From Escherichia coli 042 (GTDB lineage Bacteria > Pseudomonadota > Gammaproteobacteria > Enterobacterales > Enterobacteriaceae), in the NCBI RefSeq assembly GCF_000027125.1, contig NC_017626.1: a stretch of 64,000 bases of DNA; one strand, 5' to 3'. Position 1 is the stretch's first letter. Every line of letters begins with the position of its first letter. Below, in pieces: positions 34,201 to 43,200 of the stretch. Made by a program: the position numbers.

Positions 34201-37200
34201 ATGATTTTGATATCTCCGTCATCGATATGACTTTTAACGATGGTGCAGGACCAGGCCCTGTCCAACTTTGCAAATCTAACCACCCCATGACCGCACCGTA
34301 GGTACCGGGTGTCGCATAAACACCATGATTGACGCTATCGGGGGTAAGAACATCAAGATAATAAACTACCTTCGTAGTGTGGCCTGCATACCCTACCGGT
34401 GTATACATTGTTGCAACAATGACATTCGCCTGAACTGCTGTACTGAAGAAAAGTGATATCAGCAGGCCCAAAATCCAGCGCATTATTTTCATCTTAAATA
34501 TACTCAAACGTTGCGGTTAACTGGGCGGTAAAATCACCGGGTGTTACATCACGCCCCTCTTTTGCCTGTAACCATGCTCTGAAATTAAGACTGTTATTGC
34601 CATCATTCAGCACAAAGGTCACTCCCGTCGTGTTATTAATAGCAACAGCAATACCATCAGTAGTTTCCATACCAATGCCTACGCCCTGTGCGCCGGAGGT
34701 ACCATCCAGAGCGAGGAATCCCGGTTGTCCACTGTCTTCTGTTCCGGTCAGGGTAACTTTTACGCTGTACTGCGCTGGCCCACGGCAATCTTTCAGGCGA
34801 AAAACCACCGGTACACGATCGGACTGACCGCGCACCATCAAATCTTTGTGGCTAATATTCGCAAACTGCACCTCTGCCAACGTTCCAGCCTGTTCCACCG
34901 GAGTACAGGTTTTGCTCATCAGGTTGCCGTAAAAATGCAGATTATTAGCAGCCAGTGCTGAATGACTTGCCAGCACCAGCACGCCTCCTAACAGAAGGGT
35001 ATGCACCCTGATACGTTGATTTTTCTTCAGTTTGTTCATTGATAATCCACCTGCAATGTGGCGTAAGCGGAAAAGTTACCGTCAGTCAGCGTGGCATCGG
35101 AAGCTTTTACAGGTGCGGCCTTCAACTTCGGCAGGTTGGCGGGTGTCACGTTAAGCGGGGTATTCAGCTTAAAGGGCTGACCGTTTTGCTGGAGTTCAAT
35201 CCCTAATCCCGAGACATCCGTCTGAATCGCCGCATCGTTATAGCTGGTCTGTGTACCGGTCCAGTTTAGCGTCATTACCCAGGCGTCATCGGTAATATCA
35301 GGGTCACACTTTATCTGGTACGGAACATCTTTGCGGTAATTAACCCCGTCAATATTGTCGATAATGACGTCGATAAACTGGATCTCAATATCATCACCAT
35401 TGCTGACGGTGCAGACCGGAGGTTCGATCAGCGTACCCGTGAAGGTGATATCTTCCGGTGCGGCATGCGTTATGGTGCAAAAAGCGGATAATAAAATTAA
35501 CGAGAGTCGTTTCATTGGTAATCCACCACCATTGTCATGCTGGCGTTAAACTGTGCGCCTGTCAGCGTCACGCCATTCTGTTTGACTGGCACTGCTTTTA
35601 GTTGTGGCTGGCTACTGACGCTAAATGGAGTCCAGGTATTGTCGCCAATCGCAAACAGAGAGTTATCGGCTGCATTTTCAATACGAATGCCAAACCCGGT
35701 AATTCCCGTGCTTAACACCGTTTCGCCATTGATTGTGGTGGTTGTGCCCTTAAACTGCATCTGAAGGTCATCGCTCAGGCTATTGGCACAGTTCAGGGTA
35801 TATCCCGCATCTTTGCGATATTCAGTACCGTTGATTTTTTTGATGATCACATCACCAAAATCGACGTTACTGCCTTTTACGGTACAGGGAGGTGGTGGAT
35901 CTACCAGCACGTGCAATGTTAATGGCACACTTTTCGTTTCACCGGCAAGAGCACTGCCCGTAAGCAGCACTCCTCCCAGCCCGGCCAAAAGTAGTCGTTT
36001 CATCTCACACTCCCGGCCTCAGCCTTTGCGGCTCTGCTCTTCATCAACCTGGCAACTGTTACCGTTGCAGGTGAAAAAGAGCGGCATCCGTGCGCCATAG
36101 TCGTTGACATAGGTCAGTACCGGTACGCTACCCATCTTCACATTCAGCGGTGCAGAGGTTTTCGGCGACATCACTATTGGCGAGAAACCGGCTGCCGGAT
36201 TGCCATTTTTCTGTGCGCTGGCATTACTGAAAATGACGTAATACGGCGTCGGGTTATTGACAGTAAATTCCTGACCGTTGCGGGTTAAGGTCACTTTATG
36301 CTGCCACGGGTTTTGCGTGGTGTTTTTTTCCAGAGCTTTCGGTCGCCAGAAAAGTTTGATACGCGTCTGAAGAGCGATTTGTAGCGTGTTGGATTTGTTC
36401 GATTTCGGCGGAATTTCGCGCACGTTGAAATAGAACATCGATTCCCGATCGGCAGGTAATTTATGAATATCCGGCAGGCCCTGAATTTTTACCTGACCAT
36501 TCATCATTGCATCAATGCGCTGTACAGGCGGCAATACCGCCAGCGGCGAGCTGATTTTGACGCCCTTTTCATCTTCAATCCAGCTTTGCGCCAGATAAGG
36601 CAGTTTGGGGTCGTTATTACGCAGCGTCACGCTGATAGATTTATCGCTTTCATTAAAAATCAGGCGAGTACGATCGGGCGTTACTGACGCCTGGGTAGAA
36701 AAACTTACCGTTGCTGCCAGTAACGACAGTACCGTTGTCAATGTTTTGGCAGAGAGATATTTAGTCATGGATCATTCCTTAATCACGTTATTGGTTCGAT
36801 GAAACAGACATCGGCGGTTCCATTGGTGTCACCTGTTGTGTCTGCTCCTGAATGACGGGTTGAATATCATGCGGTATGACGGGAGAACTTCCCCCCTTTT
36901 GCTGGCATGGCAACAACAAGCCATTGAACAGGTCATTCGGTAACGGGTCTGGCAGGCTGATATCGCAGTGAGATTCACCCTCCCAGAAAACGGTCATATG
37001 TTCACCCGGTTTAACGCCTGCCAGATAAACATTACCTTCGTCATCAACCAATCCAACTTGTTGTTGATTATCGTTTTTCACTTCCGCCCCAAATGGCGGA
37101 TGGCTGCCATCCTGCAAGCGCAGCACTGCCATCGCCTTCTCACCACTGATCACCGCAAATTTACGGTAGCCAATAGCGCCTTCCGTCAGCGTTGCCTGAA

Positions 37201-40200: not shown

Positions 40201-43200
40201 CAGGTCCCTTGAATCAATATTCTTTGGCGTGCCGAACATATTGATATTTTAATATGACTGAAGCAATTTAGATTTTCTAACATTCAAAGTTAGAAATACT
40301 TAATTAATAGGCAGGAATAATAATTACTGAAATTTTTCATCTCAGTTATGAAGAATGAGTTCAAAAAAACGGCAAATGCAAAAATACAGTGAATAAATCA
40401 AAGTCAAAAACAATCACATGGCAATGACTATCTTGTGATATTAATTTCGCAACGATATAATATTAAAACACTATAATTAATATAAAATCAAGACCCAATT
40501 ATATTTTTCACTTTAGTCATTATTTACCTAAAAATGCTTCCAGAAAAATAATTTATGAATAAAAGTAAATTCTCTTTCAATATGTAAATTTTTACAAATA
40601 AAAGCGTCATGCCGTATAAAATAAAGACCATTCGATCACAAGCGGATCATTGTTAGTACAATAAGATTGCATAAATTCAACATTGCCAGAAAAAAATAAA
40701 GGCCCGATAGATTACACCAGCGGGCCTTGTGCATGCGTATTAAATCGCTTTTGCCATCTTCAGATTACACGGGCTCATCTGCCAGTTGAATGTGCCGTTT
40801 CCGCTTTCATCAAGCGTTACGCTGGCAATGGCCGAGGTGGTAAACATAGGCGGCGTTTCGCCCGGACATAACTCGGCAACCAGATACCCGACTAAGGGTA
40901 AGTGGGAGATCACCAGTACCGAAGCAACACCTTCATTGGTCAACGCCTGTAAATAGGCACTGACCAGACCAACATCGCCGCAGGGCGTTAACTCCGGCAG
41001 AACTTCTGCACTGGAAGGCAGGTTCAGACAATCCCCTACTTCTTCCAGTGTTTGCTCGGCTCGCAGGAACGGGCTCACCAGAACGCGTTCGATTTCCACT
41101 TTTTGACCTTTCAGCCAGTTCGCCATCAGGCGAGATTCGTCACAACCGTTAGTAGTCAGAGGACGAACCGAATCACTGGCGGCATCGAGGGCTGCGTCGC
41201 CGTGACGCATGATAAAAACTTGCATATTGCACCGCTTTTGTTAACCAGATTCGCCCGTTTTCTTTCATCTGAAACCAGAGAAAGAAAACGGTGGCCGGCA
41301 TTGTGCCTTATCCATTCACCGAATGAAACGCTGTTTTTTACCTCAATGGCGTAAGTATAGTCAATATGCGTTTACATTTTGAGCAACACTCCGCCATTCA
41401 GCGCGGATTCATATAGCTTTGACCTTCTTATTGCAGGTCAGTTGCAGTTGTTTTCCAAAAACTTTCCCCACGCTTGCTCATCTCGACTAAACGCTCGCAA
41501 GGGGTAAAACGGGAACCATACTGCGTGGCCAGTCGTTGCATTATTGCAACCACTTCACCCGCACCGAGAGAATCGATGTAGCGGAACGGACCACCGAGAA
41601 ATGGCGGAAAACCAATGCCAAATACCGCGCCAATATCTCCGTCACGCACGCTACGGATAACCTGCTCGTCCAGACAACGTACTGCTTCATTCAGCATCAA
41701 CATCACACACCGTTCAGCTACCTGCGGTGCGGAGAGTCGCCCCTGCCCTTGTGTGCCAATCAGCGGGTAAATGGCGGGATCGACCTGTTTTTTGCTTTTA
41801 CGCCCTTTCTGACCATAAAGATAGAAACCCCGACCATTTTTTCTGCCTTTGCGATCGTCGTTCAAAATTGAAGAAACAACATTTGCAGGCGCGCTAAAAC
41901 GTTCTCCATAAGCGGCTTCCAGTACAGGAATAATTTTAGTCCCGGTGTCGATTCCTACCTCATCCAAAAGTTGGATTGGGCCTACCGGAAAACCAAATTT
42001 CACCAGCGCGGCATCAATGTGCTCTACCCGTTCACCTTCGGTCAACATGCGGATAGCTTCATTAATGTAAGGCGCTAAAATGCGATTGACGTAAAACCCG
42101 GCTTTGTCACGCACGACAATTGGCGTTTTACCCTGTTTTTTCGCCAGTTTTACTGTGGTAGCGATGGTTTGCGCCGATGTCCCCGCATGAGGAATAATCT
42201 CCACCAGCGGCATTTTTTCCACCGGACTGAAGAAATGCAGGCCAATAACTTGCTCAGGTCGCGTAGCGTGAGCGGCGATATCACCAATCGGTAAAGATGA
42301 CGTATTCGAAGCAAAGATGGTATGAGCGGCGCAATTTTGCTCAACTTCCGCCACCATTTGTTGTTTTAATTCGAGATTTTCAAACACCGCTTCAATAATC
42401 AGATCGCGATGGGCAAAGCCGCGATAGTCCGTCGTTCCGGAGATTAATGCCAGCTGTCTGTCACGTTCGCTGGCTTTGAGATGACGACGGCGAACTTTGC
42501 CCTCCAGCTGATCCCAACTGTACTTCAGCGCATGATTTATGCCCTGCGGGTTGATATCTTTAATTCTGACCGGAAGCCCCGCTTTACAAGCAGTGACGTA
42601 AGCAATACCGCCGCCCATCAAGCCACCACCTAAAATTCCCACGCTGTTTAATGGCGCAGGCGGCGCATCACTGCCAGGATCTTTCTTCACTTCCGTACTG
42701 GCAAAAAAGATACTACGCAGCGCCTGCGATTGCGGCGTCATCGCCAGTTCGCCAAAAGCACGGGCTTCAGCGTCATAGCCGCTACTGGTGCCTTGCGCTA
42801 ATCCCGTTTCGACAACCACCAGGATGCATTCTGTCGCCGGATAGTTACCCTGAGTTTTGTGTTCTGTTTTCTTGCCGACCATTTTGAACAGCAGCGCACG
42901 ACCTAACGGCCCCGCCAGAATACGCTCGCGTACAGGTAGAGGGCGTGAAGATGGACGATCCTGCTTTGCCAGCTCAACAGCGGCTTCCAGTAAAATGGAG
43001 TGCGGAACGACGTCATCCACCAGCCCCAGCTTTAATGCCTGTTTCGCCCGAAGTTGTTTTCCGGTGAGGATCATCTCTAATGCTGTGCTGACACCTATCA
43101 GGCGCGGTAAACGCTGGGTGCCGCCTGAACCGGGTAACAATCCAAGTTGTACTTCAGGCAAACCGAGCACCGTTTTAGGATCATCAGTACACACGCGACC

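What the first reader, a model, noticed from the sequence alone, without database searches (positions are those of the whole stretch)
36788..40739. Yfc chaperone-usher fimbrial operon with an intact usher, unlike the K-12 pseudogene
The usher is a single uninterrupted 883-codon ORF, and the major subunit, chaperone and three minor subunits are also intact. Upstream is a 660-bp, very AT-rich non-coding region typical of silenced fimbrial promoters. This strain may therefore be able to assemble Yfc fimbriae that K-12 cannot make from its native locus.
Basis: partly seen in the sequence, partly recalled or inferred. Interest (0 to 1): 0.5.

Follow-up and report, generated by a model that had tools for sequence, protein, structure and literature searches.

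The report
Ordinary intact Yfc fimbrial operon
This is the intact Yfc chaperone-usher fimbrial gene cluster that almost every E. coli carries at this chromosomal spot; the broken usher is a one-base mutation seen only in the laboratory K-12 lineage among the strains sampled, so an intact usher here is ordinary.

Summary
On the minus strand between smrB and sixA lie seven intact genes: yfcV, usher, chaperone yfcS, yfcR, yfcQ, yfcP and the adhesin gene yfcO.

The K-12 recollection is also right. MG1655 yfcU carries one amber codon, TAC(Tyr579) to TAG; the window has TAT there.

The contrast is not remarkable, though. The exact K-12 sequence with TAG occurs in 363 of 5426 complete E. coli genomes, and every one sampled is a K-12 laboratory derivative. 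Natural relatives (D9, NCTC86) have TAC and an intact usher. Wurpel et al. 2013 already list yfc as a core operon, intact in all genomes they examined.

The window carries a different, deeply diverged allele, not a repaired K-12 allele. Its usher is 81% and its YfcV 66% identical in protein to K-12, with a separately inherited yfcRQPO cassette. It is also not the CFT073 yfcV allele used as a UPEC marker (73% nt).

All seven proteins are already in public databases. Purifying selection (usher dN/dS about 0.03) supports a working but probably H-NS-silenced Pap-like fimbria. Verdict: already known, low interest.

The parts
40078..40739 (-). Non-coding region between sixA and yfcV: the presumed promoter and regulatory region of the operon, very AT-rich
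   Evidence: 662 bp, G+C 28.5% (profile). Sigma-70-like hexamers are no more frequent than in shuffled sequence (11 found against 10.9 expected for the whole 33400-40800 scan; minus-strand candidates at 40486-40457 and 40345-40317). There are only three GATC sites (40188, 40634, 40645). Inverted repeats are weak. 94-99% identical in 633 complete genomes, and unalignable by megablast to the K-12-type region. That it acts as a promoter or is H-NS silenced is inferred, not shown.
40690..40726 (-). Terminator-like hairpin plus T-run just after the sixA stop codon
   Evidence: GGCCCG...CGGGCC stem followed by TTTATTTTTTT. RNA fold -18.7 kcal/mol, z = -2.3. It would insulate yfc from sixA read-through; this is an inference.
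39511..40077 (-). yfcV, major (rod) pilin, 188 aa
   Evidence: ORF. Best NCBIfam hit is StfA, 2.8e-38, below the equivalog cut-off. 99% aa to THO-008, 98% to E2348/69, 66% to K-12 and 73% to CFT073. The exact protein is in public databases (CBG35411.1).
36788..39439 (-). Usher gene (yfcU homologue), intact; ORF of 883 codons, likely start at 39427 (879 aa)
   Evidence: Pfam PapC_N, Usher and PapC_C. NCBIfam subfamily NF011812, 1788 bits against a cut-off of 972. Closest solved structure is PapC, 735 bits over residues 34-842, against FimD at 276 bits. dN/dS 0.03 against E2348/69, GF43 and THO-008.
37697..37699 (-). TAT (Tyr) codon corresponding to the K-12 amber codon TAG (yfcU codon 579)
   Evidence: K-12 reads ...GGC ATG TAG ATT..., natural group-A strains read TAC, and the window reads TAT. 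The position lies inside the Usher barrel domain (201-761).
36019..36768 (-). yfcS, periplasmic PapD-like chaperone, 249 aa
   Evidence: NCBIfam StfD 2.1e-101, SteC and other fimbrial chaperones. 100% aa to THO-008 and 84% to K-12.
35512..36003 (-). yfcR, minor pilin (StfE-like), 163 aa; first gene of the separately inherited distal cassette
   Evidence: NCBIfam StfE 4.7e-45. 99% aa to E2348/69 and GF43 but 53% to THO-008. The identity to THO-008 drops at about 36000.
35036..35515 (-). yfcQ, minor pilin (StfF-like), 159 aa
   Evidence: NCBIfam StfF 7.2e-48. 97-98% aa to E2348/69 and GF43, 51-65% to the others.
34494..35039 (-). yfcP, minor pilin (StfG-like; weak FimF adaptor similarity), 181 aa
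   Evidence: NCBIfam StfG 4.4e-45 and FimF 7e-13. YfcP is treated as the tip-to-rod adaptor in PMC12122975.
33629..34492 (-). yfcO, putative two-domain tip adhesin (StfH/YfcO family, DUF2544), 287 aa (ORF runs to 34507)
   Evidence: Pfam DUF2544 8.5e-74; RefSeq name. The N-terminal ~170 residues are hypervariable and the C-terminal ~115 residues are conserved across seven alleles. dN/dS is 0.28-0.51 in the N half against 0.10 in the C half. The nearest alleles in complete genomes are 90-92% aa. The exact protein is WP_024165625.1.
33543..33607 (.). REP-like palindromic element at the left edge of the variable block
   Evidence: Rfam naRNA4 match at 31 bits, below the gathering score of 59.5. 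Identity to K-12 and THO-008 collapses from about 33580 leftward into yfcO.

Best explanation
The region is the complete, intact yfc (Stf-type, pi-clade) chaperone-usher fimbrial operon of an E. coli strain. Its seven Yfc proteins are identical to sequences deposited for EAEC strain 042.

Proposed mechanism (inferred from the family). The pilins and the adhesin are exported by Sec and captured in the periplasm by the PapD-like chaperone YfcS. The PapC-like usher then polymerises them by donor-strand exchange. YfcO sits at the tip, YfcR, YfcQ and YfcP form a short tip fibrillum and adaptor, and YfcV forms the rod.

Transcription starts somewhere in the 662-bp AT-rich region upstream of yfcV. 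It is probably silenced by H-NS under laboratory conditions.

The intact usher is the normal state of this core locus. K-12 is the exception, because of one TAC to TAG mutation.

The window's operon belongs to one of four deeply diverged allele classes at this fixed locus, and it is itself a mosaic. The proximal module (promoter, yfcV, usher, yfcS) and the distal module (yfcR, yfcQ, yfcP, yfcO) have different nearest relatives. The receptor-binding half of YfcO is the most variable part.
For: Shown here:
- Seven intact ORFs in K-12 gene order and K-12 synteny.
- An usher with PapC_N, Usher and PapC_C domains, above the NCBIfam subfamily cut-off and closest to PapC among solved structures.
- A chaperone and pilins that hit the Stf/Ste families, and a YfcO that is DUF2544.
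- The K-12 lesion is a single C to G change making TAG at codon 579. The exact TAG 61-mer is in 363/5426 genomes, and those sampled are K-12 derivatives, annotated 'internal stop'. D9 and NCTC86 are intact.
- Usher census of 5426 complete genomes: K-12 type 3095, O157 type 428, CFT073 type 1224, window type 633. That is 5380 in all.
- Mosaic structure with sharp edges at the smrB end and the sixA stop.
- Purifying selection: the usher has 41 synonymous against 4 non-synonymous differences from E2348/69, dN/dS 0.03. Between classes dN/dS is 0.06-0.08 with dS about 1.8.
- YfcO has a variable N half and a conserved C half.
- All seven proteins are already in public databases.

From papers:
- yfc is core-associated and intact in all genomes examined (PMC3559732).
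- The orthologous Salmonella Stf fimbriae were seen by immuno-EM, and StfH alleles change cell binding (PMC5343171).
- Six of seven K-12 cryptic operons were functional when forced, and H-NS repression was stated for four named operons that do not include yfc (PMC5797941). That Korea 2010 found H-NS repression for yfc too is my recollection of its abstract.
Against: - Nothing here shows expression or assembly.
- Promoter-like hexamers in the upstream region are no commoner than chance, so the promoter is not located.
- The AlphaFold model of YfcO was poor (pLDDT 59.9) and matched no known adhesin fold. There was also no sequence match to any solved structure. The adhesin role therefore rests on gene position, the pattern of variation, the family name and the Salmonella StfH experiments.
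- NCBIfam scores for the subunits and the chaperone are below the Stf equivalog cut-offs, so these are relatives of Stf, not equivalogs.
- Attribution to strain 042 rests on my memory that CBG354xx accessions belong to FN554766. About 100 other contigs carry the same proteins.
Confidence: 0.88

Rival explanations
1. The intact usher is a notable, strain-specific capacity: most E. coli, like K-12, have a defective yfc usher, and this strain is unusual in having kept it.
For: MG1655 yfcU is annotated as a pseudogene. A few genomes have IS1-disrupted or truncated ushers (H171, H174, H189).
Against: Only 363/5426 genomes have the TAG 61-mer, and those sampled are K-12 laboratory derivatives. Natural group-A strains have TAC. 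In the spread samples of all four allele classes, the great majority of ushers are annotated as full-length proteins. Wurpel 2013 reports yfc intact in all genomes examined.
Confidence: 0.02
2. The operon is intact by ORF criteria but is a silent relic that is never expressed or assembled in nature and is on its way to decay.
For: The upstream region is AT-rich and typical of H-NS targets. By my recollection of Korea 2010, K-12 yfc is poorly expressed in the laboratory; PMC5797941 says this of the seven K-12 operons as a group without naming yfc. No recognisable dedicated regulator gene lies in the locus.
Against: There is strong purifying selection within the allele class (usher dN/dS 0.03, chaperone 0-0.05) and between classes (0.06-0.12) despite saturated synonymous divergence. 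The locus is occupied in 5380/5426 genomes. yfcV transcript responds to TosR in CFT073 (PMC5956150). Papers credit yfc with a contribution to bladder colonisation (PMC5343171).
Confidence: 0.07
3. The products promote adhesion without forming classical usher-assembled fimbriae, for example as very short or thin fibrillae or through an indirect effect. The state of the usher would then matter less than assumed.
For: In K-12, which has the amber-truncated usher, forced yfc expression gave no detectable fimbriae but 10-fold more binding to T24 cells (PMC5343171 citing Korea 2010).
Against: The usher is under the strongest purifying selection in the operon, which argues that it is needed. Orthologous Salmonella Stf fimbriae were seen by immuno-EM. 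Low-level read-through of the K-12 TAG, or help from another usher, could explain the K-12 phenotype; this is my inference and is untested.
Confidence: 0.05

Closest known systems
E. coli K-12 yfcOPQRSUV operon (b2332-b2339, yfcU = b4661 pseudogene)
   Same: Same chromosomal position (smrB ... sixA-fadJ-fadI), the same seven genes in the same order and orientation, and the same long AT-rich upstream gap (680 bp in K-12).
   Different: The K-12 usher has TAG at codon 579, where the window has TAT. The proteins are only 54-84% identical (YfcV 66, usher 81, YfcS 84, YfcR 63, YfcQ 60, YfcP 65, YfcO 54), while the flanking genes are 96-98% identical in DNA. The upstream regions are not alignable by megablast.
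yfc alleles of E. coli E2348/69 (EPEC O127:H6), GF43 and THO-008
   Same: The proximal module (upstream region, yfcV, usher, yfcS) is 98-100% identical in all three. The distal yfcRQP genes are 98% identical in E2348/69 and GF43.
   Different: THO-008 carries an unrelated distal cassette (51-59% aa, nearer the O157 type) joined at about 36000. YfcO is only 90-92% identical even to E2348/69 and GF43, and nearly all the differences lie in the N-terminal half.
CFT073 yfc operon (yfcV = c2884, the 'yfcV' marker in the Spurbeck UPEC definition)
   Same: Same locus and gene order, with an intact usher.
   Different: It is a different allele class: yfcV is 73% identical in DNA and protein, the usher 77% aa. 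The marker PCR primers, recalled from memory, match CFT073 exactly but have 5 and 4 mismatches in the window. This is below the 85% threshold VirulenceFinder uses for yfcV (PMC7512150).
Salmonella enterica Stf fimbriae (stfACDEFGH)
   Same: The best NCBIfam hit for every subunit is the corresponding Stf protein: StfA, StfD, StfE, StfF and StfG. RefSeq names YfcO 'StfH/YfcO family'. PMC5343171 states that stf is the orthologue of yfc, shows Stf fimbriae by immuno-EM, and shows StfH alleles with a variable N-terminal half and different cell binding.
   Different: Scores are below the Stf equivalog cut-offs, for example StfA 132 against 267 and StfD 339 against 447. The receptors are unknown for both systems.
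P (Pap) pili, the archetype of pi-clade chaperone-usher fimbriae
   Same: The usher aligns end to end with PapC (9e-220, 735 bits, against 276 for FimD). Both have several minor subunits and a terminal adhesin gene.
   Different: There are no papI/papB-type regulator genes and no pair of GATC sites about 102 bp apart. There is no PapH-like terminator gene between the major pilin and the usher. YfcO (DUF2544) shows no sequence match to PapG or to any solved structure.

Membership tests
Chaperone-usher fimbrial operon | Outer-membrane usher with an N-terminal domain, a beta-barrel with plug, and C-terminal domains | tested here: met
   Pfam PapC_N 1.2e-35, Usher 1.2e-187 and PapC_C 2e-13. Full-length alignment to PapC and FimD structures.
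Chaperone-usher fimbrial operon | PapD-like periplasmic chaperone encoded next to the usher | tested here: met
   The 249-aa product of 36019-36768 hits 20 fimbrial chaperone families, best StfD at 2.1e-101.
Chaperone-usher fimbrial operon | One or more pilin subunit genes flanking the usher and chaperone | tested here: met
   YfcV, YfcR, YfcQ and YfcP hit the StfA, StfE, StfF and StfG families and other fimbrial subunit families.
Chaperone-usher fimbrial operon | Surface filaments assembled in an usher-dependent way | not testable with these tools
   Needs expression and electron microscopy. The only indirect support is purifying selection and the Salmonella Stf experiments.
Yfc fimbrial type (Wurpel 2013: defined by usher phylogeny plus locus position) | Located at the K-12 yfc position between smrB (yfcN) and sixA | tested here: met
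   smrB 33008-33559 and sixA 40740-41225, followed by fadJ and fadI. The order is identical in K-12, THO-008, E2348/69, O157 and CFT073.
Yfc fimbrial type (Wurpel 2013: defined by usher phylogeny plus locus position) | Usher belongs to the Yfc/Stf branch of the pi clade | tested here: met
   NCBIfam subfamily NF011812, 1788 bits against a cut-off of 972, covering the full profile. 77-81% aa to the K-12, O157 and CFT073 Yfc ushers. PapC is the nearest solved structure. No formal tree was built.
Yfc fimbrial type (Wurpel 2013: defined by usher phylogeny plus locus position) | Gene order yfcV-usher-yfcS-yfcR-yfcQ-yfcP-yfcO | tested here: met
UPEC marker 'yfcV' (Spurbeck 2012 / VirulenceFinder allele group) | yfcV at least 85% identical to sequences that contain the marker PCR primer sites (CFT073 c2884 type) | tested here: not met
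   73.4% nt identity to CFT073 yfcV. The primers (recalled from memory, and exact in CFT073) have 5 and 4 mismatches in the window. The threshold is from PMC7512150.
Salmonella Stf equivalogs (NCBIfam StfA/D/E/F/G) | Score above the curated equivalog cut-off | tested here: not met
   StfA 131.7 against 267, StfD 338.8 against 447, StfE 153.1 against 264, StfF 162.3 against 253, StfG 153.5 against 253. These are relatives, not equivalogs.
Pap-type Dam/Lrp phase-variable promoter | Two GATC sites about 102 bp apart within Lrp sites, plus papI/papB-like regulator genes upstream | tested here: not met
   GATC occurs only at 40188, 40634 and 40645. There is no ORF of 80 aa or more between yfcV and sixA.
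fim-type invertible promoter switch | Good inverted repeats flanking a promoter segment, plus a nearby tyrosine recombinase | tested here: not met
   Only AT-rich imperfect inverted repeats are present, 78-82% complementary. There is no recombinase gene in 33000-45000.
Two-domain fimbrial tip adhesin (FimH/PapG-like architecture) for YfcO | N-terminal receptor-binding domain plus a C-terminal incomplete-Ig pilin domain | tested here: inconclusive
   The variation pattern fits: a variable N half and a conserved C half ending in ...CRFQYVLNML. The AlphaFold model gives an N-terminal beta-sandwich with pLDDT 70-87, but the C half is below 55. Foldseek found no match with E <= 0.001, and TM-scores were below 0.3. 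hmmsearch against PDB sequences found nothing.

The most novel reading that the evidence does not exclude
The yfc locus behaves as a fixed-site, modular 'adhesin cassette' system. At least four ancient allele classes (synonymous divergence saturated at about 1.8, against about 2-4% DNA divergence in the flanks) are kept in the species. The proximal assembly and rod module, the distal tip module and the YfcO receptor-binding head are reshuffled independently by recombination. On this reading, the particular combination in this window, including a YfcO head only 90-92% identical to the nearest alleles in 5426 complete genomes, would confer a receptor specificity or antigenic type distinct from K-12, O157 and CFT073 Yfc. 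It could contribute to the tissue tropism of this (EAEC 042-like) lineage.
Probability: 0.3. Interest if true: 0.35.

Novelty: already known. Interest (0 to 1): 0.12.

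Why it matters
It matters little as a discovery. The operon, its core status, its intactness outside K-12 and its high polymorphism are all published. Every protein in it is already deposited and named.

There are two practical take-aways.

(1) K-12 is a poor reference for Yfc. Its usher carries a one-base amber mutation found only in K-12 derivatives among the strains sampled, and its alleles are only 54-84% identical to those here.

(2) 'yfcV-positive' in UPEC typing refers to one allele class only (CFT073 type). Strains like this one carry an intact but different Yfc fimbria that those assays do not score.

The receptor of any Yfc/Stf adhesin is still unknown. The hypervariable YfcO head is the obvious place to look.

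Tried and rejected
- A frameshift as the K-12 lesion. Rejected: translating b4661 shows one in-frame TAG and nothing else.
- The window allele as the UPEC marker yfcV. Rejected: 73% nt to CFT073 with primer mismatches.
- Pap-like Dam/Lrp switch, fim-like invertible element, or a regulatory RNA in the upstream region. There is no GATC pair at the right spacing. Only weak AT-rich repeats are present. Rfam gives nothing apart from a sub-threshold REP-like hit outside the region. Promoter-like hexamers are at chance level.
- Structure-based identification of YfcO. AlphaFold2 with a 7-sequence alignment gave pLDDT 59.9. Foldseek against PDB returned only generic tandem Ig-like matches with TM below 0.3. 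The profile search against PDB sequences returned nothing. All inconclusive.
- Reading the primary papers (Korea 2010, Spurbeck 2011 and 2012). They are not held, so their content is cited second-hand from PMC3559732, PMC5797941, PMC5343171 and PMC7512150.
- Literature searches for 'yfcU pseudogene' and 'yfcT stop codon'. They returned only Plasmodium papers, where yFCU is a selection marker.

Full report
**1. What is in the sequence**

On the minus strand between smrB (33008-33559, plus strand) and sixA (40740-41225) there are seven consecutive, tightly packed ORFs:
- 39511-40077, 188 aa
- 36788-39439, 883 aa
- 36019-36768, 249 aa
- 35512-36003, 163 aa
- 35036-35515, 159 aa
- 34494-35039, 181 aa
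- 33629-34507, 292 aa from a TTG, or 287 aa from the ATG at 34492

The order and the flanks (prmB, smrB ... sixA, fadJ, fadI) are those of yfcOPQRSUV in K-12 MG1655. They are the same in THO-008, E2348/69, GF43, O157:H7 and CFT073.

The large ORF has the three usher domains PapC_N, Usher and PapC_C. It scores 1788 bits on NCBIfam usher subfamily NF011812, whose cut-off is 972. It aligns end to end with the solved PapC structure (735 bits) and far less well with FimD (276 bits). It is therefore a pi-clade usher.

The other products hit the Salmonella families StfA, StfD (chaperone), StfE, StfF and StfG. The last gene is Pfam DUF2544, which RefSeq names 'StfH/YfcO family fimbrial adhesin'.

The non-coding gap between sixA and yfcV is 662 bp at 28.5% G+C, against 50.3% for the window. 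An 883-codon open frame has a chance probability of about 4e-19.

- The operon runs to 33629, well outside the stated coordinates.
- There is a seventh gene, the adhesin.
- PGAP starts the usher at the second Met, giving 879 aa.

**2. The K-12 lesion**

MG1655 yfcU (b4661) is annotated as a pseudogene. Translating it shows one in-frame stop and no frameshift. The codon is TAG at position 579, in ...ADKGM*ISLS.... The window has TAT (Tyr) at the matching position, 37697-37699.

The site lies inside the barrel domain (Usher, 201-761). The truncated K-12 product would therefore lack the end of the barrel and the C-terminal part containing PapC_C.

Natural strains D9 and NCTC86 carry ushers that differ from K-12 by only two bases. 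One of those is this codon, which reads TAC, and they encode an intact 881-aa protein.

A 61-mer centred on the TAG is found exactly in 363 of 5426 complete genomes. The five sampled are ER1709, a K-12 strain, MC1061, a mouse-passaged strain whose usher is base-for-base identical to MG1655, and a laboratory-developed strain. PGAP flags one of them 'internal stop'.

The lesion is thus a single C to G change seen only in the K-12 lineage among the strains sampled.

**3. How usual is an intact usher?**

Megablast with the window, CFT073 and K-12 ushers partitions the 5426 genomes as follows:

| Usher class | Criterion | Genomes |
|---|---|---|
| K-12 type | 90% or more | 3095 |
| O157 type | 80-90% to K-12 | 428 |
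| CFT073 type | 95% or more | 1224 |
| Window type | 90% or more | 633 |
| Total | | 5380 (99%) |

In the spread samples the usher is almost always annotated as a full-length protein. Exceptions are occasional IS1 insertions or truncations (H171, H174, H189).

Wurpel et al. [quoted passage not shown] An intact usher is the rule.

**4. What allele is this?**

The flanking genes are 96-98% identical in DNA to K-12, but the yfc genes are only 66-81% identical. Protein identities of the window to K-12 are: YfcV 66, usher 81, YfcS 84, YfcR 63, YfcQ 60, YfcP 65 and YfcO 54.

The locus is a mosaic:
- From the sixA stop to about 36000 (upstream region, yfcV, usher, yfcS) the window is 98-100% identical to THO-008, E2348/69 and GF43.
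- From about 36000 to about 33580 (yfcR to yfcO) it stays 96-99% identical to E2348/69 and GF43.
- Over that same stretch it drops to 48-68% identity with THO-008, whose distal cassette is nearer the O157 type.

The best match to the distal cassette in any complete genome is 96.3%. The divergence is concentrated at 34000-34500, the 5' half of yfcO.

Between allele classes, synonymous divergence is saturated (dS about 1.8) while dN/dS stays at 0.06-0.16. Within the class, the usher has 41 synonymous against 4 non-synonymous differences from E2348/69, a dN/dS of 0.03. The genes are therefore maintained by selection and the alleles are old.

Divergent yfc alleles and high polymorphism were noted before: SE11 against MG1655 at 52-59% in three genes (PMC2608844), and high pi values in UPEC (PMC4850163).

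The window yfcV is not the CFT073-type allele that serves as the UPEC marker. It is 73% identical in DNA. The marker primers, which I recalled from memory and which match CFT073 exactly, have 5 and 4 mismatches. VirulenceFinder deliberately excludes yfcV variants below 85% identity (PMC7512150).

**5. Origin**

All seven proteins occur exactly in the public protein collection, on roughly 27-550 contigs each. The accessions include CBG35406.1, CBG35407.1, CBG35410.1 and CBG35411.1, and one chromosome is 5,241,977 bp long.

From memory, those accessions and that length belong to EAEC strain 042 (FN554766). The genome paper for that strain notes 11 chromosomal chaperone-usher operons with marked divergence in adhesins and subunits (PMC2808357). 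No complete RefSeq genome in the collection is closer than 98.6% over 16 kb.

**6. The adhesin**

Aligning seven YfcO alleles shows an N-terminal part of about 170 residues that is hypervariable. The C-terminal part of about 115 residues is strongly conserved and ends ...CRFQYVLNML. Against E2348/69 and GF43, the N half has dN/dS 0.28-0.51 and the C half 0.10.

This is the pattern expected of a two-domain tip adhesin. It mirrors Salmonella StfH, whose N-terminal half differs between alleles that bind different host cells (PMC5343171).

Direct structural support failed:
- The AlphaFold model had mean pLDDT 59.9. The N domain was a reasonable beta-sandwich, and the C half was low, as expected for a pilin domain without its donor strand.
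- Foldseek found nothing meaningful.
- No solved relative exists by sequence.

**7. Regulation**

The upstream region is AT-rich. It contains a terminator-like hairpin for sixA at 40690-40726.

It shows no Pap-like GATC pair, no convincing invertible-switch repeats, no Rfam match and no excess of promoter-like hexamers.

H-NS silencing is an inference. It rests on base composition and on my recollection of Korea 2010 for K-12 yfc; that paper is summarised without naming yfc in PMC5797941. In CFT073, yfcV transcript rises when TosR is overproduced (PMC5956150).

**8. Mechanism and verdict**

The most likely reading (confidence about 0.88) is an ordinary, assembly-competent, normally silent Yfc/Stf-type fimbrial operon. 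The chaperone YfcS delivers subunits to a PapC-like usher. YfcO sits at the tip, YfcR, YfcQ and YfcP form the tip and adaptor, and YfcV forms the rod. YfcP is modelled as the adaptor in PMC12122975.

Expression and assembly were not and cannot be shown here.

Adhesion to T24 cells nevertheless rose 10-fold.

The finding is correct as a description but is already known and unremarkable. The only mildly interesting aspect is the modular, ancient polymorphism of the locus and its adhesin head.

Noticed in passing
window 33543-33607: A REP-like palindromic element (Rfam naRNA4, 31 bits, below the gathering score) sits between smrB and the yfcO stop codon. This is exactly where identity to other yfc allele classes collapses, so it may mark the left recombination boundary of the variable block.
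   Followed up: partly
window 50933-58133: tRNA-Arg(CCT) at 50933-51007 is followed on the minus strand by an OmpH-family ORF (51445-51975) and a 2036-aa ORF (52023-58133). That ORF matches 'phase-variable autotransporter adhesin UpaE' at 99.5-100% in several E. coli genomes. In CFT073 the same site holds a frameshifted UpaE plus the ipuA/ipuB invertases.
   Followed up: partly
window ~58200-64000: The right end of the window matches multi-copy DNA (median 10 places per genome, many on plasmids). This suggests one or more insertion sequences after the UpaE-like gene.
   Followed up: no
window 33123-33608 (minus strand): A 161-aa ORF lies antisense to smrB. Its Pro/Ala/His-rich translation looks like a chance antisense frame and not a gene.
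   Followed up: no
L001 (K-12) 7266-7268 = NC_000913.3 2453265-2453267: The K-12 yfcU stop is an amber codon (TAG). Amber-suppressor K-12 laboratory strains such as supE44/glnV44 backgrounds might therefore produce some full-length usher. This could confuse comparisons of Yfc phenotypes between K-12 derivatives. It is my inference and is untested.
   Followed up: no
L002 (THO-008) 2871-5257 versus L005 (O157:H7) 1858-4187: THO-008 combines the window-type proximal module with a distal cassette that is 75-77% identical in protein to the O157 cassette. This shows that proximal and distal yfc modules are exchanged independently between lineages.
   Followed up: partly
E. coli genome hits H171, H174, H189: A few natural isolates do have disrupted yfc ushers: an IS1 insertion in strain 1403KP, a truncation in KS21 and a 229-bp remnant in YZ22PE244. 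Loss therefore occurs sporadically and by other routes than the K-12 amber mutation.
   Followed up: no
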